Positions 4,424-36,043 are shown, numbered from the stretch's first letter. The stretch is 52,938 bases of DNA from an uncultured bacterium (GCA_903825355.1 CAIKAH010000048.1:1-52938); one strand, 5' to 3'. Notes: generated by a model not told the origin, from the letters alone. Program-made: numbers and translations.

Positions 4424-4966
4424 ATGTTTTTTAATAAACCACTACATCCTGTGCGTGTTCCGCACGCGCTTGTATTGATACTTGGCCTCTCATGGCTGTA
4501 CGCCGTCTGTTCGCAACTTACACTTTGGCTGCCATGCATGCCGGTGCCCGTTAGCCTGCAGCCGTTGCCGTTGTACTTGGCCACGTTCATGTTTGGGTGG
4601 CCAGCGGTGAGCGCGTATGTGCTTTATTTGGTACAGGGCGCGCTGGGGTTGCCATTCTTTGCAGCAATGCAGGGCGGCTTTATGCGGTTGCTTGGCCCAA
4701 CGGGTGGTTACTTGATTGGTTTTTTATGCGCGATGATGTTTATTGCCATAGTGCGTGAGCATGTAAAAAAACGATGGTACTGCTTGCTTGCAGCGGTATA
4801 TGTTGCAAACATACTGAGCTTTGGTGTTGGTTTATGGCGTCTTAGTTCTTTTGTTGCCGCATCAGAATTGCTTGCAACTGGGCTTTACCCTTTTTTATTG
4901 GGTGACATTGTGCTTAAGCCGCTCGTGCTGGTAAGCATTATGGGTATGTGGTTACGACGTAAGTAG
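4424..4966 (+). CDS. bioY: Biotin transporter BioY (ECF S-component)
   Basis: PVPVSLQ, YLVQGALGLPFFA, LLGPTGGYLIGF and GLYPFLLGD motifs; 180 aa, hydrophobic. Confidence 0.93.
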   Translation: MFFNKPLHPVRVPHALVLILGLSWLYAVCSQLTLWLPCMPVPVSLQPLPLYLATFMFGWPAVSAYVLYLVQGALGLPFFAAMQGGFMRLLGPTGGYLIGFLCAMMFIAIVREHVKKRWYCLLAAVYVANILSFGVGLWRLSSFVAASELLATGLYPFLLGDIVLKPLVLVSIMGMWLRRK

Positions 4967-4967
4967 C

Positions 4968-5019
4968 CCGCTCTTCCACCCCTGAAGGGGCGCCCATTCG
5001 ACAAGCTCAGGGGGAGCGG
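4968..5019. repeat. REP-like palindromic unit (copy 1) directly after the bioY stop
   Basis: ccgctc...cccc-tgaa-gggg...ttcgacaagctcagggggagcgg; same termini and core as the two units at 10755-10923. Confidence 0.75.
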
Positions 5020-5161
5020 GAAGAGCGCATCTTGCAACAAATAAATTGTGTAAAAACAAAAATCTGTAATTAAAAAAAAGCGAAGATTATCTAAGGGTTG
5101 CTTTCGTTGGCTGCTTTGTTATGTTTTCATATGAGCATATTTAGCAGCGAGGAGAGAAACT

Positions 5162-6304
5162 ATGAAGTCCCCTGTTGTTGTTGTTGTAGGTACTCGACCT
5201 GATGCAATAAAATTACTTCCCATTTATATGGCATTAAAGCAGCAGCAGCTGCCAACACTGTTGTGTGCAACCCACCAACATGCCCACATGCTTGATCAAG
5301 TTTTGCAACTGTTTAATACGCCCCCCGATACATCCCTTAACGTTATGGTGGCTGGGCAGTCGCTTTCTTATATTACTGCTGCTGTGCTGCAGCGTATTCA
5401 AACATTTTATGAAGATACTAAACCGTCCCTTGTGGTAGTGCAAGGCGATACAACAACATCACTTGCCGCTTCGATGGCGGCTTTTTATCAAGGTATTCCT
5501 GTTGCGCATATTGAAGCAGGGTTGCGTACGTATGATAAGCAATCTCCTTTTCCTGAAGAGATGAATCGTGTGGCTATTGGGCAGCTAGCACAGTATCATT
5601 TTGCACCAACGCCATTAAATGTAGCTGCATTATTGCATGAGGGCGTGCCATATACAAAGGTGCATTGTGTGGGTAACACGGTGGTTGATGCCTTACAACA
5701 TGTGCAGACATTATTACATACGCAGCAGGTACAGATTGCTCCAGCGTTGCAAGAGCTTCTTGATGATGCGGCAGCGCATAAGAAAAAAATAGTTCTTGTA
5801 ACTACTCACCGTCGCGAATCATTTGGTGCTGGGTTGCTAGCTATTATGCAGGCGGTGAAAATATTAGCGCTGCAATATACTGATCATCTTTTTATTGTAC
5901 CTATGCACCTTAATCCCGTAGTGCGTGATGCGATTGCTACTACACAGTTAATGACTACTCCTGGTATTGTTTGCGTTGAGCCGCTAGCCTATCATGAATT
6001 AGTCTCAGTGCTGGAGCGTGCAGCGTGGGTAATGACAGACTCTGGAGGTATTCAAGAAGAAGCGCTATGTCTTGGCAAGCACGTTGTGGTAATGCGTGAA
6101 AAAACAGAACGCGTAGAACTGCTTTGGGAGGGAAGGGGAGTGTTAAGTGGAACAACAGAAAAATCTATTCTAGCGGCCGTGCATAGGATTATGCAACGCT
6201 GTAATGATGATGATAATAAGTGTTATGTATACGGTGATGGACAAGCGTCCCGGCGCATTGCATCAATTTTAAAATTGGGTATGATGTCTGCGGCAGCACC
6301 ATAG
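5162..6304 (+). CDS. wecB: UDP-N-acetylglucosamine 2-epimerase (non-hydrolysing)
   Basis: GTRPDAIK, VQGDTTT, HIEAGLRT, PFPEEMNR, TTHRRES, TDSGGIQEEA and YGDG motifs. Confidence 0.96.
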   Translation: MKSPVVVVVGTRPDAIKLLPIYMALKQQQLPTLLCATHQHAHMLDQVLQLFNTPPDTSLNVMVAGQSLSYITAAVLQRIQTFYEDTKPSLVVVQGDTTTSLAASMAAFYQGIPVAHIEAGLRTYDKQSPFPEEMNRVAIGQLAQYHFAPTPLNVAALLHEGVPYTKVHCVGNTVVDALQHVQTLLHTQQVQIAPALQELLDDAAAHKKKIVLVTTHRRESFGAGLLAIMQAVKILALQYTDHLFIVPMHLNPVVRDAIATTQLMTTPGIVCVEPLAYHELVSVLERAAWVMTDSGGIQEEALCLGKHVVVMREKTERVELLWEGRGVLSGTTEKSILAAVHRIMQRCNDDDNKCYVYGDGQASRRIASILKLGMMSAAAP

Positions 6305-6330
6305 AATATTTTACTAGGAGAACAAACCAC

Positions 6331-7653
6331 ATGAAACGTATATCTGTTTTGGGACTTGGCTATATTGGTTTACCAACGGCTATTCTTGCTGCTCAAGCAG
6401 GATATGAAGTATGTGGTTATGATATTGATCAAGAAAAAGTTAGGCAGATCAATGCTGGCAATCCCGTTATTTTTGAACCAGAAATTAGCGACCGCTTATG
6501 GAAGGCTTTGCAGGGGGGCTTTTTTAAAGCAGCTCATGAATTGCAATATGCGGATTGTTTTGTGATCGCGGTACCGACCCCGTTTAAAGAGGGCAATCGT
6601 GCCGATTTAACCTATGTATTTCAAGCTGCTGAAGCTATAGCCAAACGTTTAATGCCCGGCAATTTGGTGATTCTTGAATCAACCGTACCTGTTGGCACTA
6701 CTGAACAAGTAGCACAGTGTCTTGCAAAGAACTCCGACCTTATTCTTGGTAAAGATTTCTTTGTTTCACATGCCCCTGAGCGCGTACTCCCAGGACGTAT
6801 TTTTAAAGAACTAGTTGAAAATGACCGTGTGGTTGGCGGAATCTGCCAACAAGCATGCCGTCTGACGCAACTATTCTATAGCAAATTTGTTAAAGGCTTT
6901 ATTCATGTGACGGATGATAAGTCTGCTGAAATGATTAAATTAATTGAAAATGCGAGCCGTGATGTGCAAATAGCACTTGCTAATCAAGTAGCGAGCATGT
7001 GTAAGGCTGCTAATCTTGATCCGTACCATGTGATTGAACTGGCAAACAAGCATCCACGGGTAAAACTGCTCACCCCCACCTGCGGCGTTGGAGGCCATTG
7101 TATTGCAGTTGACCCATGGTTCTTGATTGAGACCTTTCCTGCCGAAACGCAGCTCTTGCAAGTTGCGCGTGCTATTAATGATGAAAAGCCATTAACTATC
7201 ATTAAACAGGTGCTTGAGCGTGCTGCAGAGTTAAAACGAAACAGTATTGCACGTCCTAAAATATTTGTGATGGGGCTTGCTTTTAAGCCAGATGTAGATG
7301 ATGTGCGCCAGTCTCCCGCCTTGCATATAGCTAGTGTCCTACAGACGCATTCTGATGATCTAGAGCTTAAAGTATATGACCACAACGTACCGCTTAGTAT
7401 TTTACAAAAATATAATTTTGATGTTGCTTCTGATGTGTGGCGTGGTATTGCATGGGCAGACATGGTATTGGTGTTGGTAAAACATAAAGAATTTTCATTA
7501 ATGCACCAAGATGTATTTTGTGGCAAAGTGGTTATTGATACATGTGGGTTGTTGTATGAAATGCAGTCGCGCCAGTCACGAGCCATTCTTGAAGGTGCAG
7601 CGCGCGTTGATACGCCATTCTGGAAAACGGGTGTAATGAAAGACATAGCATGA
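6331..7653 (+). CDS. wecC: UDP-N-acetyl-D-mannosamine dehydrogenase / nucleotide-sugar dehydrogenase
   Basis: GLGYIGLPTA, IAVPTPF, LESTVPVGTT, PERVLPG, GVGGHCIAVDPWF and AFKPDVDDVRQSP motifs; follows wecB. Confidence 0.93.
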   Translation: MKRISVLGLGYIGLPTAILAAQAGYEVCGYDIDQEKVRQINAGNPVIFEPEISDRLWKALQGGFFKAAHELQYADCFVIAVPTPFKEGNRADLTYVFQAAEAIAKRLMPGNLVILESTVPVGTTEQVAQCLAKNSDLILGKDFFVSHAPERVLPGRIFKELVENDRVVGGICQQACRLTQLFYSKFVKGFIHVTDDKSAEMIKLIENASRDVQIALANQVASMCKAANLDPYHVIELANKHPRVKLLTPTCGVGGHCIAVDPWFLIETFPAETQLLQVARAINDEKPLTIIKQVLERAAELKRNSIARPKIFVMGLAFKPDVDDVRQSPALHIASVLQTHSDDLELKVYDHNVPLSILQKYNFDVASDVWRGIAWADMVLVLVKHKEFSLMHQDVFCGKVVIDTCGLLYEMQSRQSRAILEGAARVDTPFWKTGVMKDIA

Positions 7654-9821
7654 ACCAAGTGTTATTGCACCGTGGTCAAATTAAGGTGCACGAAGTAAGT
7701 GCGCCGTTGGTTGATGATCATTCGGTGCTAGTGCGTGTGCATTATTCGTATATTAGTACAGGAACCGAAGCAGCTACAGTTGCGGCCTCAACCGAGTCAT
7801 TGGTAAGAAAATTTTCAAATAATATGACCGGAAGCACCCATAAATTTATGGGTGCGGTAAAAGAGCATGGCCTAGCAAGTACATTTGCCCTGATGAATGA
7901 ACGACAGCATAAACATTTGCCGCTGGGGTATGCGTGCTCCGGCCAGGTAGTTGCTACCGGCACCCGTGTTGATGGTGTTTATCCAGGTGATTTTGTGGTG
8001 TGTGCTGGTGCTGGTTTTGCCAGTCACGCTGAAATGGTTGCGGTGCCACAACAGTTAGTGGTCGTAGTAAAAAAGCCTGCCATGCTTAAACAAGCAAGTA
8101 TCACTACGATTGGGGCTATTGCATTACAAGGTATACGCCGTGCACAGCTTGAGTTGGGACAATCAGTATGTGTTATAGGGCTGGGTCTTATTGGTCAAAT
8201 AACGGTACAGCTCGCAAAGCGTGCTGGTTGCACTGTGTATGCTATTGATCTACGTCAAGATCGGTTAGCATTGGCCAAACAAGGTGGCGCTGATGTGTGC
8301 CTTAACCCATTGACCGATGATATTGTCAAAGAAATAGAAATAAGAACAGCACACCATGGCGTTGACGCTTCAATTATTACCGCTGCGGCAAGTACTGGCA
8401 ACATTATTCAACAGGCAATGCAAACAACGCGCCGTAAAGGCAAGGTAGTGCTTGTTGGTGATGTGAAAATAGATTTTGATCGTGAGCCTTTTTATTCTAA
8501 AGAGATAGATCTTCTCATTTCATGCTCATATGGTCCTGGTCGTTATGATGCATCATATGAGCGTGAAAGCAAAGACTACCCCTATGCCTATGTGCGCTGG
8601 ACTGAACGCCGCAACATGGCATATATTTTGGAACTGATTGAGCAGGGCCTTTTACGTATCGATCCTCTCATTACAGGTGAGTATCCGTTGCATGATGCGG
8701 CTACCGGGTATTCCTTCTTGCAGAAGACGGGAGCCCTTGGCATTGTATTGCGCTACTCCCCAGAAATGACTGTTGAAGAAGCAATAAAAAAACCAATCGT
8801 TGTACCTTCCAGGGCATTTAAAGCAATCACTACTGGTGTGCGCTTGGCAGTAGTTGGCGTAGGTGGCTTTGCTAAAGTGCGCTTGTTACCCATGCTTAAA
8901 GGTATACCTAAATTAACGATTCATTCGATAGTTGATACTGATGCTGCTAATGCTATGACGGTTGCGCAGCAATATGGCGCGCTGCGCGTAGGGAACGATT
9001 TACGAAAAGTAGCTGCAGATGATGATGTAAACGCGGTGGTAATTGCTACGCCACACGCTCAGCATGTTGAGCAGGTAAAGTTATGCTTGCAAGCTGGCAA
9101 AGCAGTACTCGTAGAAAAGCCCTTGGCAGTAACCAATGAGCAGCTGCTGGATATGAAAATATTCTTGCAAGAGCGCCCGCAATCGTTTTTTATGGTTGAT
9201 TTTAATCGTTCCTGGGCTCCTTTTAATTTGGATATTAAAAAAGCGATTAACGGACGCACTAATGCGTTGATGATTAGCTACCGTATGAGTGGCAACTATT
9301 TACCTAAAGATCATTGGATTCAAAGTGAGCTGCATCGTGGACGTATTGTTGGTGAAGCATGCCACATCTTTGAACTGTTTTGCTTTTTGACTGATGCGCA
9401 GCCAGTATCGGTACACGTTGCTCCTTTGCGTCACCAGACCAGTGATTTGCCGATTACTGACAATATTTATGCAACAGTAACCTTTACCGATGGCTCTGTG
9501 TGTAGCTTGTTGTACACTGTTCTTGGTCACGGATCAGCAGGTAAAGAGTACATGGAAGTGTATGTTGATGGTAAAACGATTATTCTGGATGATTATTACA
9601 CGCTCAAGGGCTATGGCTTACCAGCAACATTTTCTAAAAAAGCTACCAGGCAAGATAAGGGCCACGAAGCCTTATTTGAGTCCTTTTTTAAAGCTGCTAC
9701 GGTGGAGCCGTTATCGTTACCCGTGTCTTATGAACGAGCATTGATGGCAACGGAGATTTCGCTTGTGGTTGATAAGCTTGCACGTCAGGGTGGGGGCTTT
9801 GAAGTTATGGAGCATTTATAA
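7650..9821 (+). CDS. Bi-domain oxidoreductase (MDR/zinc-binding dehydrogenase-like + Gfo/Idh/MocA), nucleotide-sugar biosynthesis
   Basis: ISTGTE, LPLGY, GLGLIGQ, SYGPGRYD...YVRWTE in the N-half; GVGGFA, IATPH, VEKPLA, GEACH in the C-half; ATGA overlap with wecC. Confidence 0.9.
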   Translation: MNQVLLHRGQIKVHEVSAPLVDDHSVLVRVHYSYISTGTEAATVAASTESLVRKFSNNMTGSTHKFMGAVKEHGLASTFALMNERQHKHLPLGYACSGQVVATGTRVDGVYPGDFVVCAGAGFASHAEMVAVPQQLVVVVKKPAMLKQASITTIGAIALQGIRRAQLELGQSVCVIGLGLIGQITVQLAKRAGCTVYAIDLRQDRLALAKQGGADVCLNPLTDDIVKEIEIRTAHHGVDASIITAAASTGNIIQQAMQTTRRKGKVVLVGDVKIDFDREPFYSKEIDLLISCSYGPGRYDASYERESKDYPYAYVRWTERRNMAYILELIEQGLLRIDPLITGEYPLHDAATGYSFLQKTGALGIVLRYSPEMTVEEAIKKPIVVPSRAFKAITTGVRLAVVGVGGFAKVRLLPMLKGIPKLTIHSIVDTDAANAMTVAQQYGALRVGNDLRKVAADDDVNAVVIATPHAQHVEQVKLCLQAGKAVLVEKPLAVTNEQLLDMKIFLQERPQSFFMVDFNRSWAPFNLDIKKAINGRTNALMISYRMSGNYLPKDHWIQSELHRGRIVGEACHIFELFCFLTDAQPVSVHVAPLRHQTSDLPITDNIYATVTFTDGSVCSLLYTVLGHGSAGKEYMEVYVDGKTIILDDYYTLKGYGLPATFSKKATRQDKGHEALFESFFKAATVEPLSLPVSYERALMATEISLVVDKLARQGGGFEVMEHL

Positions 9822-9823
9822 AA

Positions 9824-9864
9824 TAAAAAAAGAGCCGGAATAAAAAATTCCGGCTCTTTTTTTA
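9824..9864. terminator. Bidirectional intrinsic terminator
   Basis: taaaaaaagagccggaat / attccggctcttttttta inverted repeat with A/T tails between convergent genes. Confidence 0.9.
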
Positions 9865-9875
9865 GATAGCTTTTG

Positions 9876-10406
9876 TTAAAGAGAAAGTTGAGCAAATGCT
9901 TTTTTTAGATCGCTAAACACTTTGTTTAAATCATTAGAAATAAGTGCCGTTTCGCTGAGTACTTCTAAAAATGCCGTATCTCCTCGCCAGCGAGGTACGG
10001 TGTGCACGTGCAAGTGGCCGGGAATGCCCCCGCCACCGGCAGAACCGAGGTTAATGCCTACGTTAAAACCTTCGTTATACAACACTTTTTTGCTCACAAC
10101 CAAAGCATTGTTAATGGCCTCCATTATCTCACTGCGTACTAGTGGTGAAAGTTCATCAAGCCAGCCTTTATGTTCGTACGGCAGTACCATTAAATGGCCC
10201 GCGTTGTAGGGGTATAAATTCATCATGACAAAGCAGTGCTCATAGCGTTTTAAAATAAAATATTTGTCATCATCATTGGCAGCTACTTGTTTGCAAAATA
10301 CACAATCATCAGGCCCTGATGGTTTTGGGGTATTGGTGTTTATTTTTTTATTGTCACTTGCCTGTGTTACATAGGCATTGCGCCATGGTGCGTATAATTG
10401 TTTCAT
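9876..10406 (-). CDS. HIT family protein (FHIT / Ap4A phosphorylase-like)
   Basis: LYAPWR, CVFC, NLYPYNAGHLMV, GFNVGINLG and HLHVHTVPRW motifs. Confidence 0.92.
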   Translation of the reverse strand: MKQLYAPWRNAYVTQASDNKKINTNTPKPSGPDDCVFCKQVAANDDDKYFILKRYEHCFVMMNLYPYNAGHLMVLPYEHKGWLDELSPLVRSEIMEAINNALVVSKKVLYNEGFNVGINLGSAGGGGIPGHLHVHTVPRWRGDTAFLEVLSETALISNDLNKVFSDLKKAFAQLSL

Positions 10407-11992
10407 GCTAATCCAAATGTGTTGATAATGGTATGTTCAAATACGTCTGTTTGCATACCCCCAACGAGACGTTTTTGCTCTTTCCCCTCACGAATAAATA
10501 AAAATGAAGGTACGCTTTGCACGCTACGTGCTTGTAAGAATTTAAGTGTAGCATCAAATGCGCCGGTTGAGTTTTCTATATTTAATTTTAGAAACGCTAT
10601 TTTGCCCGCATATTTTTTTGCTAAAGCATCAACCACCGGAGCCATTTGTTGGCAAGGGCCACACCACGTTGCAAAGATATCGAGGACTACTGGCAAAGGG
10701 TTGTTGATAATGAATCGCTCAATGTCGGCAGGGGTGAGAATCTCATATACTTTCCCGCTCTTTATCGCCCCTTGGGCTTCGTCTTTCGACAGGCTCAGGA
10801 TGAGCGGTTTTGTTTGTTTTTTTGTATTAGATTCTTTATCTGATTGTGTGCTGGTGCGTGCTACTTGCTCCGCTCCTCCTGAGCTCGTCGAAGGACGAAG
10901 CGCGCTAGCGCGAGAAAGAGCGGATGTTGAAAATCCTATTCCCTTCAAAAAGCTTATTGTTTGTAATGCAGCCTTGCAGCCATCTCCAGCAGCTGTAATT
11001 GCTTGTACAAAGGTGCTATCACATACATCACCGGTGGCAAAAATACCGGGAACGCTGCTTTCTTGATGGTTGTGGAGGGTGATAAAGCCGCGTGGATCGA
11101 GGGCAAGTTGGTCTTTGAAGAGCATTGTATTTGGTTTTGAACCAATAGCTAAAAATACACCGTCAGTTGCAACTGCTTGATTATTATCAAGCAGCACGCT
11201 AGTGACGCCATCTTCGTTGCCATTAATCTGTTTTAGTTGCCTATTGTAGAGTACTTTTACATTCTTTCGTCTCAGTACTGCGTCACGCTGTTTAGTATCT
11301 TTTGCCCTGAAATTATCTTTGCGTACAATAATTACTACTTCATCTGCAATATCCGCTAAGTAGGCAGCTTCGGTAATTGCAGCGTCCCCGCCCCCAACGA
11401 TTACTACCCGTTTATGTTTGAAGAGAGCCCCGTCGCAGACAGCACAGTTGCTAACTCCCTTGCCCCAAAACGCATGCTCGCCAGGAATGCTAAGTAAATT
11501 GGGTTCGGTGCCGGTGGCAATAATCACACTTAGTGCTTTTAGGGTTTTTTTGATAGTTGGATCTTGTGTTGACACAGTATGAATGACACGCGGCCATTGC
11601 GAAAAATCAACGCTAGTAACCTGCTCTGTCGTAATAGAGGCTCCTGCTTGGAGTACCTGATTCTTGATGCTAGCTATAATGTCAGCCCCTGCTGCTTTTT
11701 CTACTCCTGGCCAATTTTGTACTGCATGTGATTGAGCCAGCGCGCCACCAGGCTTGCCCCCTTCAATAACCAGCGTAGGAATTTGTGCCTGTAGGCTATA
11801 CAAAGCGGCCGTTAGCCCTCCTACCCCTCCACCTAAAATAACAAGGGGATATGGATGGCTATTTGGGCTGATGGCGTTAAGTGAAAGACTTGCTGTGGTG
11901 TCAGAACGTGTGCATCCACCAGTGATGCACACGCTTATAACTGCTATAATAAATAAAAAATTTCTTGAAGTGATAACTTTTTGTATGAGCAT
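10403..11992 (-). CDS. trxB: Thioredoxin reductase-thioredoxin fusion with N-terminal signal/lipoprotein-like leader
   Basis: GGGVGG FAD motif, GVSNCAVCDG, GGGDAA, GDV...QAITAAGDG; C-terminal Trx domain with WCGPC. Start moved to ATG 11992 (GGAG upstream); leader FLFIIAVISVCITGGC. Confidence 0.93.
   Translation of the reverse strand: MLIQKVITSRNFLFIIAVISVCITGGCTRSDTTASLSLNAISPNSHPYPLVILGGGVGGLTAALYSLQAQIPTLVIEGGKPGGALAQSHAVQNWPGVEKAAGADIIASIKNQVLQAGASITTEQVTSVDFSQWPRVIHTVSTQDPTIKKTLKALSVIIATGTEPNLLSIPGEHAFWGKGVSNCAVCDGALFKHKRVVIVGGGDAAITEAAYLADIADEVVIIVRKDNFRAKDTKQRDAVLRRKNVKVLYNRQLKQINGNEDGVTSVLLDNNQAVATDGVFLAIGSKPNTMLFKDQLALDPRGFITLHNHQESSVPGIFATGDVCDSTFVQAITAAGDGCKAALQTISFLKGIGFSTSALSRASALRPSTSSGGAEQVARTSTQSDKESNTKKQTKPLILSLSKDEAQGAIKSGKVYEILTPADIERFIINNPLPVVLDIFATWCGPCQQMAPVVDALAKKYAGKIAFLKLNIENSTGAFDATLKFLQARSVQSVPSFLFIREGKEQKRLVGGMQTDVFEHTIINTFGLA
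10755..10923. repeat. Inverted pair of REP-like palindromic units lying in frame within the TrxB-Trx linker
   Basis: Unit 10755-10807 and inverted unit 10870-10923. Inner arms 10776-10807/10870-10901 match 28/32 and outer arms 10755-10768/10910-10923 match 13/14 by manual alignment. Confidence 0.88.
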
Positions 11993-12061
11993 GATTTTCT
12001 CCGTTAAAAGAACATGCTCTAGAATACAAAGGCTATATTTCAAAAGCAAAACTTATCTATT

Positions 12062-15036: not shown

Positions 15037-16581
15037 TCAAAAAGAATCTTCATCTATGGTATTGTTTGTAAAATTAACTTTAGCGCCGTAAACATCCTGA
15101 CGACGTGCTTGTGCAGGGATCTTGCATATAGGGCATTTTCTTTGCAACGGCAAGCAAGTATTTAAACAACCACGACAAAAAATATGCTCACAGTTTTTGA
15201 TGACGCCTATCCGAACGTCATCCGCAAACTCTTCAAAACAGATGCCGCATAGATCGACAGGATTCCGTTGAGCAGAAGAAGACTGAACGGCGTGGCGGGC
15301 GGCGCTTGCAATACTGATGGGCGCTGGTGGATAGTTTGATTTTATGGTATTAAACCAGAAATCATATTCAGGAGTGCCACTAGCAAACTTACAGGTGGAT
15401 GTACCAAAATAATCTTCCTTGAAATAACGACCATTCAGACCATAGCGCTGATTGTTAAACTGTTCATAAGGATCATAGTCCCAATGAGGAGTAGTATAAG
15501 TCCAGCCAGTAGTGCTTCCATACGAAGTCTCGTGAGGTTGAGCGGTTGGTTCGATGGTATTAAACCAGAAATCATACTCTGGGGTGCCAGGAGCAAATTT
15601 ACAGGTGTATCGGCCAAAATACTCTTTTTCAGTTTGGTGGCGGCCAGTGCTATAGCGTTGTGCAGTGTACCGTTCGTATGGATCATAGTCCCATTTTGCT
15701 GTGCTAAATGTCCATCCTGCTGTTCCACGCCAATAGGATGTTCTATGAGGCTTTGGAATATGAATAGTGCTTGGTAAGCTGTCGAAATCAGCAAAGCCAA
15801 GTTTTAAGCCAGAATACAGTGCTTGTAGCCCTAAGAGGATGCGGTACATATTCTTCTGCGCTTGGGCCTCAGGTTTATCTGCGGCAGTGGTATAATTGCG
15901 CAGTAATCGCAGCAAAGACATTATAGAACGCGCTCCAAAATTCAGCTTGCGCGGGAATTCATTGGCGTATCCGGCATCACCATGAACTACGCTGCTGAAT
16001 ATACCGCAAACTCCTTCAGCAGCAGCTGAGGCGCGTATTGTTGCTGGCGTTGTCCCAGGTTCTTCAGTGTTTGTAGGAGCGGTAGATGCCTCGCGAGACA
16101 GTTCTTGTTGTGGCTTGCACAGGGCTGCAATATGTTTGCAAAATTGTACCGTGTCTACCCCGGCCCAGATTAAATCAATAGAATGTTCATCTTGTGGGTG
16201 AGATAAAATGTAGCAAAGCTCTTCAATGCAACGAATAAGCGAAATCAGAGCCTTTTTTGCTTCGGCGGGCCTTGAGAAATCATCGCGTAAGCGGTGTTCA
16301 AGCGGTACTAAAGCGGCGCGCAATAATGTGGTTACAAGACCAGTAGCAGCAATCCATTTTGTACTACTTTCTTGAAAGATATATGGGTTTTGCGATTGGT
16401 ATACACAATAGTTATTTTGGCAGGTATGACTTATTTCAACTGGCGTTAATTTTATGCCGCCGTCATGCCATACAAAGCGTGCATTGCCAAACTTGAAAAG
16501 GGTATTTTTGCTATAAGCAGGAGAGTTGTTACTCACTAAGATGATAGAGAGGGCAACAAAAATGCGATGTAAATGTTTCAT
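15037..16581 (-). CDS. Secreted modular protein A: shared N-domain + 2 W/Y/D modules + C3HC4 RING finger (candidate E3 ligase effector)
   Basis: Signal peptide from MKHLHRIF (alternative ATG 16590); RING CGIC-x15-CEH-x2-CRGC-x10-CPIC at 15124-15249. Confidence 0.9.
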   Translation of the reverse strand: MKHLHRIFVALSIILVSNNSPAYSKNTLFKFGNARFVWHDGGIKLTPVEISHTCQNNYCVYQSQNPYIFQESSTKWIAATGLVTTLLRAALVPLEHRLRDDFSRPAEAKKALISLIRCIEELCYILSHPQDEHSIDLIWAGVDTVQFCKHIAALCKPQQELSREASTAPTNTEEPGTTPATIRASAAAEGVCGIFSSVVHGDAGYANEFPRKLNFGARSIMSLLRLLRNYTTAADKPEAQAQKNMYRILLGLQALYSGLKLGFADFDSLPSTIHIPKPHRTSYWRGTAGWTFSTAKWDYDPYERYTAQRYSTGRHQTEKEYFGRYTCKFAPGTPEYDFWFNTIEPTAQPHETSYGSTTGWTYTTPHWDYDPYEQFNNQRYGLNGRYFKEDYFGTSTCKFASGTPEYDFWFNTIKSNYPPAPISIASAARHAVQSSSAQRNPVDLCGICFEEFADDVRIGVIKNCEHIFCRGCLNTCLPLQRKCPICKIPAQARRQDVYGAKVNFTNNTIDEDSF

Positions 16582-18635
16582 GCAGCTCATTTTTTGTCTT
16601 TTGGTTAGGGGGTATCAGATAAGATCTTATTTGCTTGATTGATGACCTTGAATTTTTCAGGATCTCCACCTTTATCAGGGTGATGTTCTTTTGAAAGCTG
16701 CAAATAGGCTTTGCGAATGTCACGTTCAGTAGCGGAGCTAGAAAGGCCAAGATTCTGGAGAGCGTATCCTCTTGCCTTGCTTGGTTCCTTGTCTACTACA
16801 TCGGTTGGAATCATCATACCGACTTTCCACGTTGGTGCAGGAGCCGGAGGGGGGTTGTATCTTGATTGATTGCCGCTTCCGCTCGTATTACCGCCAAAGA
16901 AATTTCTGAAAAAGTTTTCAGAATAATCATCAGGATTTGGCTGGCTGTAGGTGTTAGACTGTGGTCTACTACTTGTAGTATATTTTGGTCTTTCTACATT
17001 ATACCAAAAATCGTATTCAGGCGTTCCTTTAGCGAAATTACAGAATCTCGTGCCAAAGAAATCCGCTCTTGTTTTAGGACTTTTCATGTAAGCATCATAG
17101 GGGTCATGATCCCAATGCGGACAACTAAACGTCCAGCCTGTTGTGCTGCCGTGTCGCGTTTTATGCGGTTCAGTGGGTCTAGGCGGTACTGTAGAGGGCC
17201 GAGATGGCTTATGAGCTCCACAGCATGGACACTGAGAAATCGTGAACCATGTAACCCCACAGCGACATTTCCATTCACTTGCAGAAGAATTTGCGCCGGG
17301 GGCTGAAGGGCCTGATGTTGATCTTGGTGGTGGAGTGTAAGACGTATTTGGTACTGAATATGCGCAACCAAACCCATCACAGAATATATGGGACACTGGA
17401 TTTGCAAACCTAGAACCTGAATTCCGATGGCCACAGCTCGGACAAGTCCAGTCTCGAGGGGTTCGTTTTTGCTCTGCATTAGGTGCAGCTGTTGGATAGT
17501 TTGGTCTTATGGTATTGTACCAGAAGTCATATTCGGGAGTGCCGCTAGCAAAGTTACAAGTATGTTTACCAAAATAATCTTCCTTGAAATAACGACCATT
17601 CAGACCATAGCGTTGATTGTTAAACTGTTCATAAGGATCATAGTCCCAATGAGGAGTAGTATAAGTCCAGCCAGTAGTGCTTCCATACGAAGTCTCGTGA
17701 GGTTGAGCGGTTGGTTTGATGGTATTGTACCAGAAATCATACTCGGGGGTACCATGAGTGAATTTGCAAGTATAGCCACCAAAATACTCTTTTTCAGTTT
17801 GGTAGCGGCCAGAATTATAACGTTGTGCAACGTATCGATCATATGGATCATGATCCCATGTTGCGGCACTAAATGTCCATCCTGCCGTTCCACGCCAATA
17901 GGATGTTCTATGAGGATTTGGAATATGAATAGTGCTTGGTAAGCTGTCGAAATCAGCAAAGCCAAGTTTTAAGCCAGAATACAGTACTTGTAGTCCTAAG
18001 AGGATGCTGTACATATTCTTCTGTGCTTGCTGTTCTGGTTTGGCTGCCGCAGTAGAATAGTTTCGCAATAATCGTAAGAGCGACATAATAGAGCGTGCGC
18101 CAAAATTCAACTTACGCGGGAATTTGTTGGCGTATTTATCATCGCGGTGAACTAAGCTGCTGAATATACCGCAAGCACCTTCGGCAGCAGCTGAGGCGCG
18201 TATTGTTGCTGGCGTTGCCTCAGGTTCTTCAGTGTTTGTAGGAGCGTTAACTGCCTCTGTTGACAGTTCTTGTTGTGGCTTGCACAGCGCTGCAATATGT
18301 TTGCAAAATTGTACAGCGTCTACTCCGGCCCAGATTAAATCAATAGAATGTTCATCCTGTGGGTGAGATAAAATGTAACAGAGCTCTTCAATGCAGCGAA
18401 TAAGCGAAATAATCGCTTTTTTTGCTTCGGCGGGCTTTGAAGTGTCATCACGCAAACGGTGTTCAAGTGGTACCAAGGCAGCGCGCAATAATGTGGTTAC
18501 AAAACCAGTAGCAGCAATCCATGTTGTAGTACTTTCTTCAAAGATATACGGGTCTTCCCAATAGTATTGACAGTTATTTTCGCAGGTATGACTTTTTTCA
18601 ACTGGTGTTACTTTTATCCCCCCGTCATGCCATGC
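15330..18635. repeat. ~1.15-kb direct duplication (about 15330-16470 and 17495-18635), constant offset 2165 bp
   Basis: Anchors 15346/17511, 15537/17702, 15750/17915 and 16201/18366 all differ by 2165. Confidence 0.92.
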
Positions 18636-18743
18636 GACTCGTGCGTTGCCAATGGTAAAAAGGGTATTGGCGCTCAAGGTAGCGGGAAAGCTACTTGTTA
18701 ATAAAAGAGAGAAAATAATAAGAATATGCTTTAAGTGCTTCAT
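16605..18743 (-). CDS. Secreted modular protein B: shared N-domain + 3 modules + two RanBP2-like zinc fingers + C-terminal J-domain
   Basis: Signal peptide; WTCPSCGHRN...C-x4-C and WKCRC...CPCCGAHKP; LGL...DIRKAYLQLSKEHHPDKGG...FKVINQANKIL. Confidence 0.9.
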   Translation of the reverse strand: MKHLKHILIIFSLLLTSSFPATLSANTLFTIGNARVAWHDGGIKVTPVEKSHTCENNCQYYWEDPYIFEESTTTWIAATGFVTTLLRAALVPLEHRLRDDTSKPAEAKKAIISLIRCIEELCYILSHPQDEHSIDLIWAGVDAVQFCKHIAALCKPQQELSTEAVNAPTNTEEPEATPATIRASAAAEGACGIFSSLVHRDDKYANKFPRKLNFGARSIMSLLRLLRNYSTAAAKPEQQAQKNMYSILLGLQVLYSGLKLGFADFDSLPSTIHIPNPHRTSYWRGTAGWTFSAATWDHDPYDRYVAQRYNSGRYQTEKEYFGGYTCKFTHGTPEYDFWYNTIKPTAQPHETSYGSTTGWTYTTPHWDYDPYEQFNNQRYGLNGRYFKEDYFGKHTCNFASGTPEYDFWYNTIRPNYPTAAPNAEQKRTPRDWTCPSCGHRNSGSRFANPVSHIFCDGFGCAYSVPNTSYTPPPRSTSGPSAPGANSSASEWKCRCGVTWFTISQCPCCGAHKPSRPSTVPPRPTEPHKTRHGSTTGWTFSCPHWDHDPYDAYMKSPKTRADFFGTRFCNFAKGTPEYDFWYNVERPKYTTSSRPQSNTYSQPNPDDYSENFFRNFFGGNTSGSGNQSRYNPPPAPAPTWKVGMMIPTDVVDKEPSKARGYALQNLGLSSSATERDIRKAYLQLSKEHHPDKGGDPEKFKVINQANKILSDTP

Positions 18744-18766
18744 GGTGATATTTTGTTAGTTCGCGC

Positions 18767-20230
18767 TTAGGGTTTAGGATGTGTTTTTTTTATCTCTTCC
18801 AAAATAGCGTTTGCTTCACTGATTATTTTGAATTTTTCTGCAAATATAACTTGTTCAGCAGGAGTTGCTTTATCAGGATGGTATTTGAGCGCTAATTTTT
18901 TGTACGCAGTTCGTGCCTCAGCGTCAGTAGCTGTTCTTGGTAGTTCAAGATTTTCGCATGCCATATCACGTACTACCTGATGGGCCCCTTGTACGTTGTT
19001 GTAAACAGCATCAAGTAATTTATCGGGAATCATGGTCCCCGGTTGCCAGCTTGCTGGTCTTTGGTAGGTCCCGAAGTGGTGATAGCCCCCATGATTGGTG
19101 TAATTATTGTCATCTTCATCGCCAGAATCATCAAAATGAAATCCAAATCCGCTGAAAAAATCTCTAAACGGATTGTACCCCCTAGGAGCAGTTCGTACTT
19201 TATTGTACCAAAAGTCATATTCTGGCGTATCATAATCAAATTTGCAGTATTGTTTTCCAAAATATGCTTCAAAATCAGCTTTTGAGTATCCATTAGCAGG
19301 TTCTGGGTGCGCTTGCTTAAAGCGCTCATAAGGATCGTGTGTCCAGCATCGTGATTCAAAGCGCCATCCAGTAGTATCGCCGAAGGAGGTGTGGTGGGGG
19401 TTTCTATTAGCTTCGGTTGGTTCAAAATGAGCAAGGCCAAATTTTACGCTCGAGTACAAAGCTTGTAGGGCCATGAGCGCTACATAGATATTACGCTGTT
19501 TGTTATTTTCTTCTCCTCCTGGAACGTCATTGAAATTACGTAAGAGACGTAAAAATGATATAGCTGAACGTGCACCAAAGTTTAGTTTGCTTGCATTTCG
19601 TAAAATTTCAGTATTAAAATTGGCGTTGTTCTTGCCTGGAATAGTCATAGAAACGGTAGCGCAAATGCCCTCAAGTAAGGCTGATGCTTGGCGAGGAGTG
19701 AGTCCACTAGATTTGATAGACACTGTTTCTGTTGCTTCATTTTCTGGGGTAGGTGAAGCTTTGCATGCAGCTACGACATACTTGCACGTTTGTGCAGCAT
19801 CAACTATAGCCCAGGTAAGGTCTATAAGGTGTTCATCGTTTGGATGCTTGAGTACATAACAAATTTCTTCAACACAGCGCACCAGCGAGATAAAGGCTTT
19901 TTTAATGTTGCCACTGGCTGAATTATCATTAAGCAAACGGCTTTCTAAGGGGACCAGTGCGGCCCGAATGACAGCCGCGGCCATGCCTGCTACCCAAAGG
20001 CGATCAGTAGTTTTGTTCTTGAAAATGTATGGATTATTGTATAAATCATACGGGGTGCTAGCCTTAGTATTACGCGTTATTTTAATGCCGTAATCGTGAA
20101 TGACAAAGCTTGCGCTGCCAATGTTAAAGCCGGCTCCCGTTCCCTTGCCATTAGCTGAAAGGGTTGTAATAGTGAGCGAGAAAACGAGTAATAGATATGC
20201 GAAAAAACGTGATGGTGTCTTTAAATGCAT
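18767..20230 (-). CDS. Secreted modular protein C: shared N-domain + 1 module + C-terminal J-domain
   Basis: Signal peptide; RAALVPLE...ISLVRCVEE...HPNDEH...KLNFGARS shared with A and B; AYKKLALKYHPDK...FKIISEA. Confidence 0.9.
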   Translation of the reverse strand: MHLKTPSRFFAYLLLVFSLTITTLSANGKGTGAGFNIGSASFVIHDYGIKITRNTKASTPYDLYNNPYIFKNKTTDRLWVAGMAAAVIRAALVPLESRLLNDNSASGNIKKAFISLVRCVEEICYVLKHPNDEHLIDLTWAIVDAAQTCKYVVAACKASPTPENEATETVSIKSSGLTPRQASALLEGICATVSMTIPGKNNANFNTEILRNASKLNFGARSAISFLRLLRNFNDVPGGEENNKQRNIYVALMALQALYSSVKFGLAHFEPTEANRNPHHTSFGDTTGWRFESRCWTHDPYERFKQAHPEPANGYSKADFEAYFGKQYCKFDYDTPEYDFWYNKVRTAPRGYNPFRDFFSGFGFHFDDSGDEDDNNYTNHGGYHHFGTYQRPASWQPGTMIPDKLLDAVYNNVQGAHQVVRDMACENLELPRTATDAEARTAYKKLALKYHPDKATPAEQVIFAEKFKIISEANAILEEIKKTHPKP

Positions 20231-35251: not shown

Positions 35252-36043
35252 ATGCAGTTTAAATTGATGCTAATGCTATCAATCGCGGCAATGATCCCGG
35301 GATATGTTGGAGCCCTGACATTCGAAGAAGAAGGTGGAGCAATTATGAGTATGCTAAGCAGCCTAAACAGAGTAGACCTATCCAAGTCTGATTGGAAATC
35401 TACAGGTCCCACTGCTGAAGACATACGAGCCGGCAACGAGGCAGCAGCTAAATCTTCCAGTTTTTTTGCTAAAAGAGACCTGGGGGGAAAGCTGAAAGAT
35501 GCAGTGGAAAAGGGCTCTATTAAGGATATTAAACCGTTAATTGATGCAGGCGCTGAGCTTGAAATTACAGATTATTGGGGTATGACTCCTCTTATGACCG
35601 CTGCACAAAAAGGTTATGTTGAGATTGCCAATATGCTCGTAACGGCAGGAGCGAATATTGATGCTTTCACGCCGGAAGGTTCGAGGACTGCGCTTGTTTA
35701 TGCTATAGACAAAGGCCATACTGAAATTGCAAAGCTTCTAATCGCTAAGGCTAAGGCTTCATGCAATTTTAAAGCACTTGCTAGTGCTATAGACAAAGGC
35801 AATACTGAGATTGTAAAGCTTCTTGTAGCTAAGGGGGCCGCTCAAAAAAACCAAAACGAATTCGAACGTTTGTTTCTTTCTGTTGTGCAACGAGGTGACA
35901 ATCAAATGGTGAAAACTCTTATGTCTGGGGAGACTAGTATAGATGGTTTTACGCTAAAGATAGCTTCTATGTCTGCGCGGAGTACTTGCTCGCCTGAGGT
36001 TGTCAAAGCTATTGAGGATCTGCAGAAAAAATCCAGTAAGTGA
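35252..36043 (+). CDS. Secreted ankyrin-repeat protein
   Basis: ATG 35252 after GAGG; signal peptide; GMTPLMTAAQKGYVEIANMLVTAGANID, RTALVYAIDKGHTEIAKLLI, ALASAIDKGNTEIVKLLVAKGA. Confidence 0.9.
   Translation: MQFKLMLMLSIAAMIPGYVGALTFEEEGGAIMSMLSSLNRVDLSKSDWKSTGPTAEDIRAGNEAAAKSSSFFAKRDLGGKLKDAVEKGSIKDIKPLIDAGAELEITDYWGMTPLMTAAQKGYVEIANMLVTAGANIDAFTPEGSRTALVYAIDKGHTEIAKLLIAKAKASCNFKALASAIDKGNTEIVKLLVAKGAAQKNQNEFERLFLSVVQRGDNQMVKTLMSGETSIDGFTLKIASMSARSTCSPEVVKAIEDLQKKSSK

What the first reader, a model, noticed from the sequence alone, without database searches (positions are those of the whole stretch)
10755..10923. Palindromic DNA repeats form the protein linker of a TrxB-thioredoxin fusion
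Seen: the 169 bp between the end of the reductase (…FLKGIGFST) and the start of the Trx domain (KVYEILT…WCGPC) consists of two inverted ~53-bp repeat units around a 62-bp spacer. It is read without a stop as SALSRASALRPSTSSGGAEQVARTSTQSDKESNTKKQTKPLILSLSKDEAQGAIKSG, and a third copy lies intergenically after bioY. Established: Rickettsia palindromic elements insert in frame into genes and add peptide. Inference: an analogous element family either lengthened an existing linker or helped create the fusion, and the mRNA should form a long stem that may affect translation or stability.
Basis: partly seen in the sequence, partly recalled or inferred. Interest (0 to 1): 0.75.

Follow-up and report, generated by a model that had tools for sequence, protein, structure and literature searches.

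The report
Selfish hairpin repeats in enzyme linker
Two mirror-image copies of a small selfish DNA repeat that litters this uncultured bacterium's genome sit in frame in the flexible linker of an old thioredoxin reductase-thioredoxin fusion; they lengthen the linker and did not create the fusion, much as is long known from Rickettsia.

Summary
Window 10755-10807 and 10870-10923 are inverted copies of one ~52-nt G+C-rich unit around a 62-nt A+T-rich spacer. They are read without a stop in the TrxR-Trx gene, and a third copy follows bioY.

The unit belongs to a genome-wide family of 135 copies in 1.39 Mb. Seventeen copies lie in frame inside 11 Pfam-supported genes, including MutL, PGK, iPGM, DapF and UppP. 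Six of those genes carry the same head-to-head dimer.

The fusion is old. All 120 best homologues listed have both domains, and only the nearest (76% identity) shares the insert. Same-genus orthologues lack it. So the element lengthened a variable linker and did not create the fusion.

Empty sites in same-genus orthologues of the HisRS-like gene and PGK show clean in-frame insertions.

Three intact small GIY-YIG genes are each bracketed by the units. This resembles the Ssn/NTS architecture (Chenal 2025), but the published SRM pattern matches 0 of 135 units.

Intragenic REP dimers and Rickettsia RPEs are known, so this is a new member of a known kind. This scan had already noted the repeat family elsewhere in this genome.

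The long mRNA stem is predicted (-81 kcal/mol); its effect is untested.

The parts
10403..11992 (-). TrxR-Trx fusion gene. The database gene call is 529 aa; the longest ORF runs to 12049. It has an N-terminal hydrophobic, lipoprotein-like leader, a TrxR domain with CAVC and a Trx domain with WCGPC.
   Evidence: ORF list and translation; Pfam Pyr_redox_2 68-357 and Thioredoxin 438-541; P0001 is identical over 529 aa; solved TrxR chains align to query residues ~61-371.
10755..10807 (+). Repeat unit 1, in + orientation. It is read on the minus strand as the ...LILSLSK... peptide, next to the Trx domain.
   Evidence: profile hit 10754-10807, E 4.9e-12.
10808..10869 (.). Unique 62-nt A+T-rich spacer (G+C 0.34), which encodes about 20 polar residues. 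Its origin is unresolved: either the old linker or cargo of a dimer.
   Evidence: No other copy in the genome, and no similarity to the other 17 head-to-head spacers; conserved in the closest relative P0002; not significantly like the G002/G003 linkers.
10870..10923 (-). Repeat unit 2, in inverted orientation. It is read as the ...RPSTSSGG... peptide, next to the end of the TrxR domain.
   Evidence: profile hit 10870-10924, E 1.2e-09.
4967..5019 (+). Third, single, intergenic copy of the unit, directly after the bioY stop codon.
   Evidence: profile hit E 1.7e-12; BioY Pfam match for 4424-4963.
4424..4966 (+). bioY gene, the landmark for the third copy.
   Evidence: Pfam BioY, E 7.8e-23.
9876..10406 (-). 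HIT-family gene downstream. Its ATG overlaps the fusion's TGA stop codon (ATGA), so the two genes form one operon.
   Evidence: Pfam HIT, E 3.1e-08.

Best explanation
The 169-bp palindrome is a head-to-head dimer of a ~52-nt, G+C-rich, hairpin-forming repeat unit. The unit behaves as a selfish, non-autonomous mobile element. It resembles REP and RPE elements and has 135 copies in this 1.39-Mb genome, which is probably of the Dependentiae.

The element entered the variable interdomain linker of a TrxR-Trx fusion that already existed. This happened after the lineage split from its same-genus relatives G002 and G003, and before it split from the organism that encodes P0002.

The insert persists for two reasons. 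The linker tolerates extra residues. The units have no stop codon in up to five of six frames, and the insert kept the reading frame. It adds about 36 residues (units alone) to 56 residues (with the spacer) of Ser/Ala/Lys/Thr-rich, probably disordered peptide. Both redox motifs remain intact.

The strong mRNA and DNA hairpin is a by-product of the dimer and not a device made for this gene.

Inferred, not shown: the units are recognised as single-stranded hairpins and are spread by the small GIY-YIG nucleases whose genes they bracket, as in the Ssn/NTS system. Whether the spacer is a remnant of the old linker (two insertions) or came in with the dimer (one insertion) remains open.
For: Family: 117 core matches against 0 in a shuffled genome. 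A profile search finds 135 units, with G+C 0.63 against 0.42 for the genome.

Structure: compensatory changes occur in the 3-bp stem that closes an invariant 13-nt loop (TA 70/CG 23/GC 7; CG 66/GC 28; CG 63/GC 27, out of 104) and in a second hairpin.

In-frame copies: 17 of 135 units lie inside 11 genes that have Pfam domains. Six of these genes carry head-to-head dimers: TrxR-Trx, MutL, the HisRS-like gene, GH3-NamZ, a HAS-barrel protein and Peripla_BP_6. All five stop-free frames are used.

Empty sites: the HisRS-like genes of G002 (86% identity) and G001 lack the whole 43-codon unit-spacer-unit block. PGK of G002 lacks a 26-codon unit.

Age of the fusion: every one of the 18 related loci aligned has an open TrxR-Trx frame without unit peptides. 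All 120 listed homologues have both domains, and 2 of 120 have unit peptides.

Inheritance: P0002 (76% identity) has the same first unit and spacer and a decayed second unit.

Permissive site: the element lies between the end of the alignment to solved TrxR chains (~371) and the start of Trx (438). Of 56 inserted residues, 48 are small or polar.

Nuclease link: 3 of 3 uninterrupted small GIY-YIG genes sit between a (-) and a (+) unit. The fourth, which has a stop codon, has a unit on one side only. The same bracketing is seen in G003, G012, another Dependentiae MAG, a Sphingomonas MAG and a Novosphingobium genome; with the window genome's own locus that makes 6 of 12 loci scanned.
Against: Mobility itself was not observed. 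No target-site duplication or precise excision was seen.

The published SRM search pattern of the Ssn paper matches 0 of 135 units and is not enriched in the genome (4 matches against 1-4 in five shuffles).

Across relatives the link between nuclease gene and repeat is loose. A GIY-YIG homologue is found in 13 of 17 genomes that have the repeat pattern and in 10 of 24 that lack it. G002, G018 and G040 have 13-20 repeats but no homologue was found; these genomes are kin and some are incomplete.

Neighbouring units are inverted in 44 of 47 close pairs. Simple independent insertions do not explain this.

For TrxR-Trx no empty site at high identity is available. The spacer shows no significant likeness to the G002/G003 linkers (p 0.4-0.9). 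If all 56 residues were removed, the distance between the domains would be 48, below the minimum of 62 seen in 77 homologues. A single clean insertion into an intact old linker is therefore unlikely too.

Translation of the linker was not shown.
Confidence: 0.85

Rival explanations
1. The palindrome is a selected regulatory RNA structure for this operon, for example a translational pause between the two domains, an mRNA stabiliser or an RNase site.
For: The predicted stem is very stable (-81 kcal/mol, z -8.4). The insert has been kept in frame over 24% protein divergence.
Against: The same units occur 135 times, mostly between genes, and inside 10 other unrelated genes. 118 of the 120 listed homologues lack it. 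In P0002 the second arm has decayed at the protein level while the gene stays open. No Rfam family matches the element.
Confidence: 0.06
2. The element created the TrxB-Trx fusion by bridging two formerly separate genes.
For: The element lies exactly between the two domains.
Against: The fusion has open frames of 489-541 aa in 18 related loci across the family and lacks the element there. All 120 listed homologues are fusions and 118 have no unit peptides.
Confidence: 0.02
3. The units are classical REP/REPIN elements moved by a RAYT (IS200/IS605-type tyrosine transposase), and the GIY-YIG genes are bystanders.
For: The units are short structured repeats, often arranged as inverted dimers with a fixed 12-25-nt gap (20 of 26 tail-to-tail pairs), like REPINs. 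One Y1_Tnp match exists in the genome.
Against: The only Y1_Tnp match is a broken, truncated IS200-like gene with a TAG stop. No unit lies on its contig. The unit consensus has no GTAG tag. The genes that the units bracket are GIY-YIG genes.
Confidence: 0.07
4. The palindrome is an assembly or binning artefact, a chimeric join at repeats.
For: Contigs of several runs break at the two arms.
Against: An independent run's contig spans 10400-10928 with 4 differences, and another spans 10400-10901. The reading frame is intact and is conserved in P0002.
Confidence: 0.01

Closest known systems
Rickettsia palindromic elements (RPE; Ogata et al. 2000 and 2002, as described in the review PMC10969869, of which I read passages)
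   Same: Palindromic repeats in an intracellular bacterium. They insert in frame into unrelated housekeeping genes, add a short conserved peptide at permissive sites, and also occur between genes.
   Different: RPEs are ~150 bp and belong to Rickettsia. The unit here is ~52 nt, is often a dimer with a unique spacer, and sits in a different phylum (names on homologues point to Dependentiae/TM6). Sequence relatedness to RPEs was not tested.
Intragenic REP dimers of the GTAG and CGTC superfamilies (Di Nocera et al. 2013, PMC3733652; I read the abstract and passages)
   Same: Short tagged hairpin repeats, mostly in inverted dimers. They are found inside known genes, many of them DNA replication and repair genes, and more than half of the inserts are dimers that encode 20-30 residues. 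MutL is a host here.
   Different: The unit here has no GTAG tag. CGTC occurs only in the commonest subtype and at the other end of a 4-6-bp G+C stem, whereas the family has a 5' tag and an 8-9-bp stem that starts with A/T. The unit also has a second module with an invariant 13-nt loop.
Ssn nucleases with NTS/SRM hairpin repeats (Chenal et al. 2025, PMC11893778; I read the abstract, sections 6 and 12, passages, and ran three text searches of 10 supplementary files)
   Same: A small single-domain GIY-YIG gene is bracketed on both sides by copies of an oriented hairpin repeat that is also scattered in tens to hundreds of copies. The paper notes enrichment in symbionts.
   Different: The published SRM pattern matches 0 of 135 units. 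The core motif is not in the supplement text held. NTS is reported as rarely inside genes (2%), against at least 17 of 135 here. Membership of these proteins in cd10448 and cutting of single-stranded DNA were not tested.
REP/BIME/REPIN elements with RAYT transposases (Enterobacteria, Pseudomonas; from my own knowledge and from the passages of PMC3733652)
   Same: High-copy imperfect palindromes, inverted dimers with fixed spacing, and a frequent position just after stop codons (the bioY copy).
   Different: The units bracket no RAYT gene. The only Y1 transposase match is a broken IS200-like gene.
Natural TrxR-Trx fusions (NTRC-type proteins; from my own knowledge; the 487-residue PDB chains 7p9d and 7p9e align across both domains)
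   Same: Low-molecular-weight TrxR is followed by Trx in one chain, with a flexible linker and both CxxC motifs.
   Different: The family here has an N-terminal hydrophobic, lipoprotein-like leader. In this species it has a repeat-derived linker.

Membership tests
RPE-like protein-coding palindromes | A dispersed palindromic repeat is inserted in frame in unrelated protein genes and is absent from orthologues. | tested here: met
   17 of 135 units lie in 11 Pfam-supported genes. Empty sites are seen in the HisRS-like gene and in PGK.
RPE-like protein-coding palindromes | Sequence homology to the Rickettsia RPE-1 to RPE-10 consensus sequences. | not tested
REP/REPIN with RAYT | A GTAG tetranucleotide at one end of the hairpin. 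| tested here: not met
   The consensus of 105 distinct full-length units contains neither GTAG nor CTAC.
REP/REPIN with RAYT | A RAYT (Y1 transposase) gene flanked by the repeats. | tested here: not met
   There is one PF01797 match, broken by a TAG stop and truncated. No unit lies on its contig C7. The assembly is 95.5% complete, so a missed gene cannot be excluded.
CGTC-tagged REPs (Di Nocera 2013) | A CGTC tag, an 8-9-bp stem with A/T in its first two positions, a 4-5-nt loop and a 3-nt tail. | tested here: not met
   Hairpin 1 has a 4-6-bp G+C stem. CGTC follows the stem and does not precede it. Other subtypes read CGTG or CGCC at that place.
CGTC-tagged REPs (Di Nocera 2013) | Head-to-head dimers predominate, and intragenic units occur. 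| tested here: inconclusive
   There are 18 head-to-head and 26 tail-to-tail pairs in the genome. All 6 dimers inside genes are head-to-head.
Ssn/SRM system (Chenal 2025) | A small single-domain GIY-YIG gene flanked on both sides by the repeat. | tested here: met
   3 of 3 uninterrupted genes (95-129-aa open frames) lie between a (-) and a (+) unit. The same holds in 5 further loci of other genomes.
Ssn/SRM system (Chenal 2025) | The repeat fits the published degenerate SRM pattern. | tested here: not met
   0 of 135 units fit it. The genome has 4 matches against 1-4 in shuffles. None is found in 10 GIY-YIG loci.
Ssn/SRM system (Chenal 2025) | The protein belongs to CDD family cd10448. | not testable with these tools
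   No CDD is on hand. Pfam GIY-YIG scores 55-63 bits. NCBIfam gives no hit. The nearest solved chains are the UPF0213 proteins 1zg2 and 1ywl (E 7e-13 and 2.5e-11).
Ssn/SRM system (Chenal 2025) | Site-specific cleavage of single-stranded DNA next to the repeat. | not testable with these tools
   This needs a biochemical assay.
TrxR-Trx fusion | Pyr_redox_2 and Thioredoxin domains in one open frame, each with its CxxC motif. | tested here: met
   Pfam. CAVC and WCGPC are visible in the translation.

The most novel reading that the evidence does not exclude
The conserved ~25-nt module and its small GIY-YIG gene form one mobile system that crosses phyla. The module is a 3-bp covarying stem around the invariant loop TTCGACARGCTCA, followed by GAGCGG. 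It is seen in Dependentiae, Sphingomonadales, Chloroflexota, Acidobacteriota, Elusimicrobia and others. The system is distinct from the published NTS/SRM motif. Its head-to-head dimer is the form that colonises genes. On this reading an Ssn-type single-strand nuclease would be the long-missing mobiliser of RPE-like, protein-coding palindromes.
Probability: 0.3. Interest if true: 0.7.

Novelty: new member of a known kind. Interest (0 to 1): 0.45.

Why it matters
It shows that protein-coding palindromic repeats, best known from Rickettsia, also colonise housekeeping genes in another lineage of intracellular bacteria. Interdomain linkers and surface loops are where they survive.

It has practical consequences for annotation. 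The units produce recurring peptides (LSLSK, PSTSSG, FDKLR, PELVEG, RQAQEER) that can mimic homology between unrelated proteins. They also break metagenome contigs and seed spurious small ORFs.

It offers a natural test of linker tolerance in a TrxR-Trx fusion.

The bracketing of small GIY-YIG genes by the same units, in two phyla, gives a concrete candidate for the enzyme that moves such elements, and that candidate can be tested.

Tried and rejected
1. My early idea that the 62-nt spacer is the old linker. The spacer peptide is not significantly like the linkers of P0003, P0004, P0005, P0006 or P0007 (shuffle p 0.39-0.89), so the apparent match in the alignment is chance. The question stays open; only a length argument remains.
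2. Rfam at permissive thresholds over 4800-11200. There is no match at either copy of the unit. All 18 sub-threshold hits lie at 9722-9950, a terminator-like hairpin.
3. RAYT. Only a broken IS200-like gene was found.
4. The published SRM pattern: no fit. [quoted passage not shown] A further supplement search found only genome lists and counts, no repeat sequences.
5. NCBIfam gave no family for two of the GIY-YIG proteins.
6. Structure prediction of the fusion, meant to show linker disorder. The job failed, and four retries were not sent because the queue was full. No model exists, so disorder is inferred from composition alone.
7. No RNA holder is listed among the 20 runs, so nothing can be said on expression.
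8. The joint 10807->10871 in run X12 has 10 other letters in between and only 23 letters on its shorter side. It most likely comes from another repeat locus and is not an allele.
9. The look-up of earlier findings by sequence returned nothing.
10. Literature searches. Searches by unit peptides, 'Dependentiae' with 'palindromic', GIY-YIG/REP/intragenic terms and Dependentiae/TM6/MITE terms found no description of this repeat family. I judged this from listings and abstracts only.
11. Stop codons do not explain why tail-to-tail dimers are absent from genes. 25 of 26 have at least one open frame.

Full report
**Observation.**
The window holds an inverted repeat at the stated place. The repeat finder reports arms 10776-10807/10870-10901 (32 nt, 88% complementary, 62 nt apart), flanked by a second pair at 10755-10768/10910-10923. 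Aligned over their full length, the two arms share 45 of 55 columns. The arms have G+C of 0.60 and 0.67, the spacer 0.34 and the gene 0.45.

The minus-strand ORF 10403..12049 reads through everything. It carries Pyr_redox_2 at residues 68-357 and Thioredoxin at 438-541. Solved thioredoxin reductases align up to about residue 371, so the element lies entirely between the two domains.

As RNA the region folds at -81 kcal/mol, 8.4 standard deviations below shuffled sequence. The third copy (4967-5019) follows an ORF that matches BioY.

Contigs from independent metagenome runs carry the same arrangement. One contig spans 10400-10928 with four differences. The palindrome is therefore not an assembly artefact.

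**The repeat family.**
The window is contig C48 of a 1.39-Mb, 42% G+C genome. The 23-nt core of the arms occurs 117 times at up to five mismatches and not at all in a shuffled genome. A profile built from these copies finds 135 units of about 51 nt with G+C of 0.63.

The unit has three parts:
- an outer stem (CCGCTC with GAGCGG);
- a small G+C hairpin;
- a 3-bp stem that closes an invariant 13-nt loop, TTCGACARGCTCA.

The last stem shows clear compensatory change: TA 70, CG 23, GC 7; CG 66, GC 28; CG 63, GC 27, out of 104 distinct units. The small hairpin also covaries. No Rfam family matches.

Units that lie within 150 nt of each other are almost always inverted (44 of 47 pairs):
- 26 pairs are tail-to-tail, and 20 of these have a fixed 12-25-nt gap. 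Some of their spacers resemble each other.
- 18 pairs are head-to-head, with gaps of 7-147 nt. Every one of these spacers is unique.

The pair in the TrxR-Trx gene is head-to-head.

**Copies inside genes.**
25 of the 117 core matches lie in open frames with at least 40 codons on both sides. I fetched 14 host frames, and Pfam supports 10 of them. Four had no family and I left them out of the count. The 10 supported hosts are:
- MutL;
- a HisRS-like synthetase;
- iPGM;
- PGK;
- UppP/BacA;
- DapF;
- a histidine kinase;
- a GH3-NamZ fusion;
- a periplasmic binding protein;
- a HAS-barrel protein.

With TrxR-Trx this gives 17 of 135 units inside 11 genes. Six of these genes carry a head-to-head dimer, and none carries a tail-to-tail dimer. 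All five stop-free frames of the unit are in use. They give the recurring peptides PSTSSG, FDKLR and RQAQEER in one orientation, and LSLSK and PELVEG in the other.

Two orthologue comparisons show clean empty sites. The HisRS-like genes of G002 (86% identity) and G001 lack the whole 43-codon unit-spacer-unit block. PGK of G002 lacks a 26-codon unit. The HisRS-like case shows that a head-to-head dimer can arrive together with its spacer.

**History of the TrxR-Trx linker.**
The fusion is much older than the insert. All 41 related genomes searched have a match. The 18 related loci I could align have open frames of 489-541 residues with variable linkers and no unit peptides. I left out one further locus, L018, whose 439-aa frame sits on a short 2.6-kb locus.

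In the protein database all 120 best hits listed carry both domains. Only two carry unit peptides: the window's own protein and P0002, its closest relative at 76% identity.

P0002 has the same first unit and the same spacer. Its second unit has decayed and grown longer. The insert was therefore inherited from a common ancestor and is drifting. P0003 (the G002 protein, 63% identity) and P0004 (the G003 protein) have unrelated, shorter linkers.

Whether the spacer is old linker remains open. It is not significantly similar to the relatives' linkers.

The length argument points the other way. The distance from the end motif of TrxR to the Trx CxxC motif has a median of 79 residues and a minimum of 62 in the 77 of 120 homologues where my pattern could measure it. 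It is 104 here. It would be 68 without the two units and 48 without the whole block.

**How the units may move.**
The genome has no usable RAYT. The single Y1-transposase match is a truncated IS200-like gene with a stop codon, on a contig without units.

A note from an earlier stage of this scan pointed to small GIY-YIG genes, and I checked this myself. The genome has four of them. The three uninterrupted genes each lie between a (-) unit and a (+) unit, and the gene may run in either direction between them. The fourth is broken by a stop codon and has a unit on one side only. This is the same arrangement as the common tail-to-tail dimers, which therefore look like gene-less derivatives.

Homologous genes bracketed by the same core occur in G003, G012, another Dependentiae MAG, a Sphingomonas MAG and a Novosphingobium genome. 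With the window genome's own locus L188 that makes 6 of 12 loci scanned; five had no unit and one only a weak hit.

Among 41 related genomes the pattern is present in 17.

The link between gene and repeat is loose across relatives. A GIY-YIG homologue is found in 13 of the 17 genomes with the pattern and in 10 of the 24 without it.

The architecture matches the NTS-ssnA-NTS arrangement of the Ssn family of single-strand-specific nucleases (PMC11893778; I read the abstract, sections 6 and 12, and passages). The published SRM pattern, however, fits none of the 135 units, and the core is not in the supplement text held. I could not test cd10448 membership. The nearest solved proteins are UPF0213 members.

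So the element works like an Ssn/SRM pair on present evidence. Membership is unproven, and movement was not observed.

**Comparison with what is known.**
In-frame palindromic inserts are the hallmark of Rickettsia RPEs (passages of PMC10969869 that cite Ogata 2000 and 2002). Di Nocera et al. (PMC3733652; abstract and passages) reported several related points:
- REPs occur inside genes in several species.
- Many of these genes are replication and repair genes.
- More than half of the inserts are dimers encoding 20-30 residues.
- The CGTC-tagged class includes dRS3, RPE-4 and RPE-6.
- The CGTC-tagged class lacked a known transposase.

The present units fit this picture in behaviour, but they fail the defining tags and stem geometry of both classes.

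My four literature searches found no description of this repeat family or of such inserts in Dependentiae (listings and abstracts only). This scan had already described the family on two other pieces of the same genome.

**Verdict.**
The feature is a new member of a known kind: a selfish hairpin-repeat dimer tolerated in frame in a permissive interdomain linker. The predicted mRNA stem is real on paper, but nothing indicates that it was selected. The open and more interesting questions concern the family as a whole. It is not known which enzyme moves it, why dimers inside genes are always head-to-head, or how one short core came to be shared across phyla.

Noticed in passing
window 11900-11992 (N-terminus of the fusion); alignment A1: The TrxR-Trx family has a conserved N-terminal hydrophobic leader that ends in a G-C pair (consensus ...GC... 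near residue 21-22 in 54 homologues). It looks like a lipoprotein signal or a membrane anchor, which is odd for an NADPH-dependent flavoenzyme.
   Followed up: no
window 10403-10406: The TGA stop of the fusion overlaps the ATG of the downstream HIT-family gene (ATGA). This suggests translational coupling within one operon.
   Followed up: no
window ~9822-9865: A perfect A/T-flanked hairpin lies between the convergent 723-aa gene (7650-9821, +) and the HIT gene (9876-10406, -). It looks like a two-way intrinsic terminator. All 18 sub-threshold Rfam hits pile up there.
   Followed up: no
L021 = G000:C7:1-2710: The broken IS200-like transposase gene sits between ORFs full of eukaryote-style C2H2 zinc-finger repeats with H-T-G-E-K/R-P-F linkers. 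That is unusual for bacteria, and the proteins may be host-directed.
   Followed up: no
G000, genome-wide (e.g. C18:16305-16335, C41:11485, C8:9992, C2:38665): A subset of units carries an extra ~22-nt hairpin module inserted before the core. The copy inside PGK is of this type and adds 26 codons.
   Followed up: partly
G000, genome-wide: All 6 dimers inside Pfam-supported genes are head-to-head, while 0 of 26 tail-to-tail dimers are in genes. Yet 25 of the 26 have at least one open frame, so stop codons do not explain the bias.
   Followed up: partly
window 15323-19270: There is a 300-nt direct repeat (15323-15622 and 17488-17787, 90% identical) and a 70-nt family with six copies. This is probably a cluster of paralogous genes.
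   Followed up: no
window 35690-35834: Two 61-nt direct repeats lie 84 nt apart (84% identical), probably a repeat-domain protein.
   Followed up: no
L196 (Sphingomonas MAG) and L197 (Novosphingobium): In Sphingomonadales the unit is reduced to the ~25-nt core module without the 5' half. It still brackets a GIY-YIG gene that is 48-50% identical to the one in this genome.
   Followed up: partly
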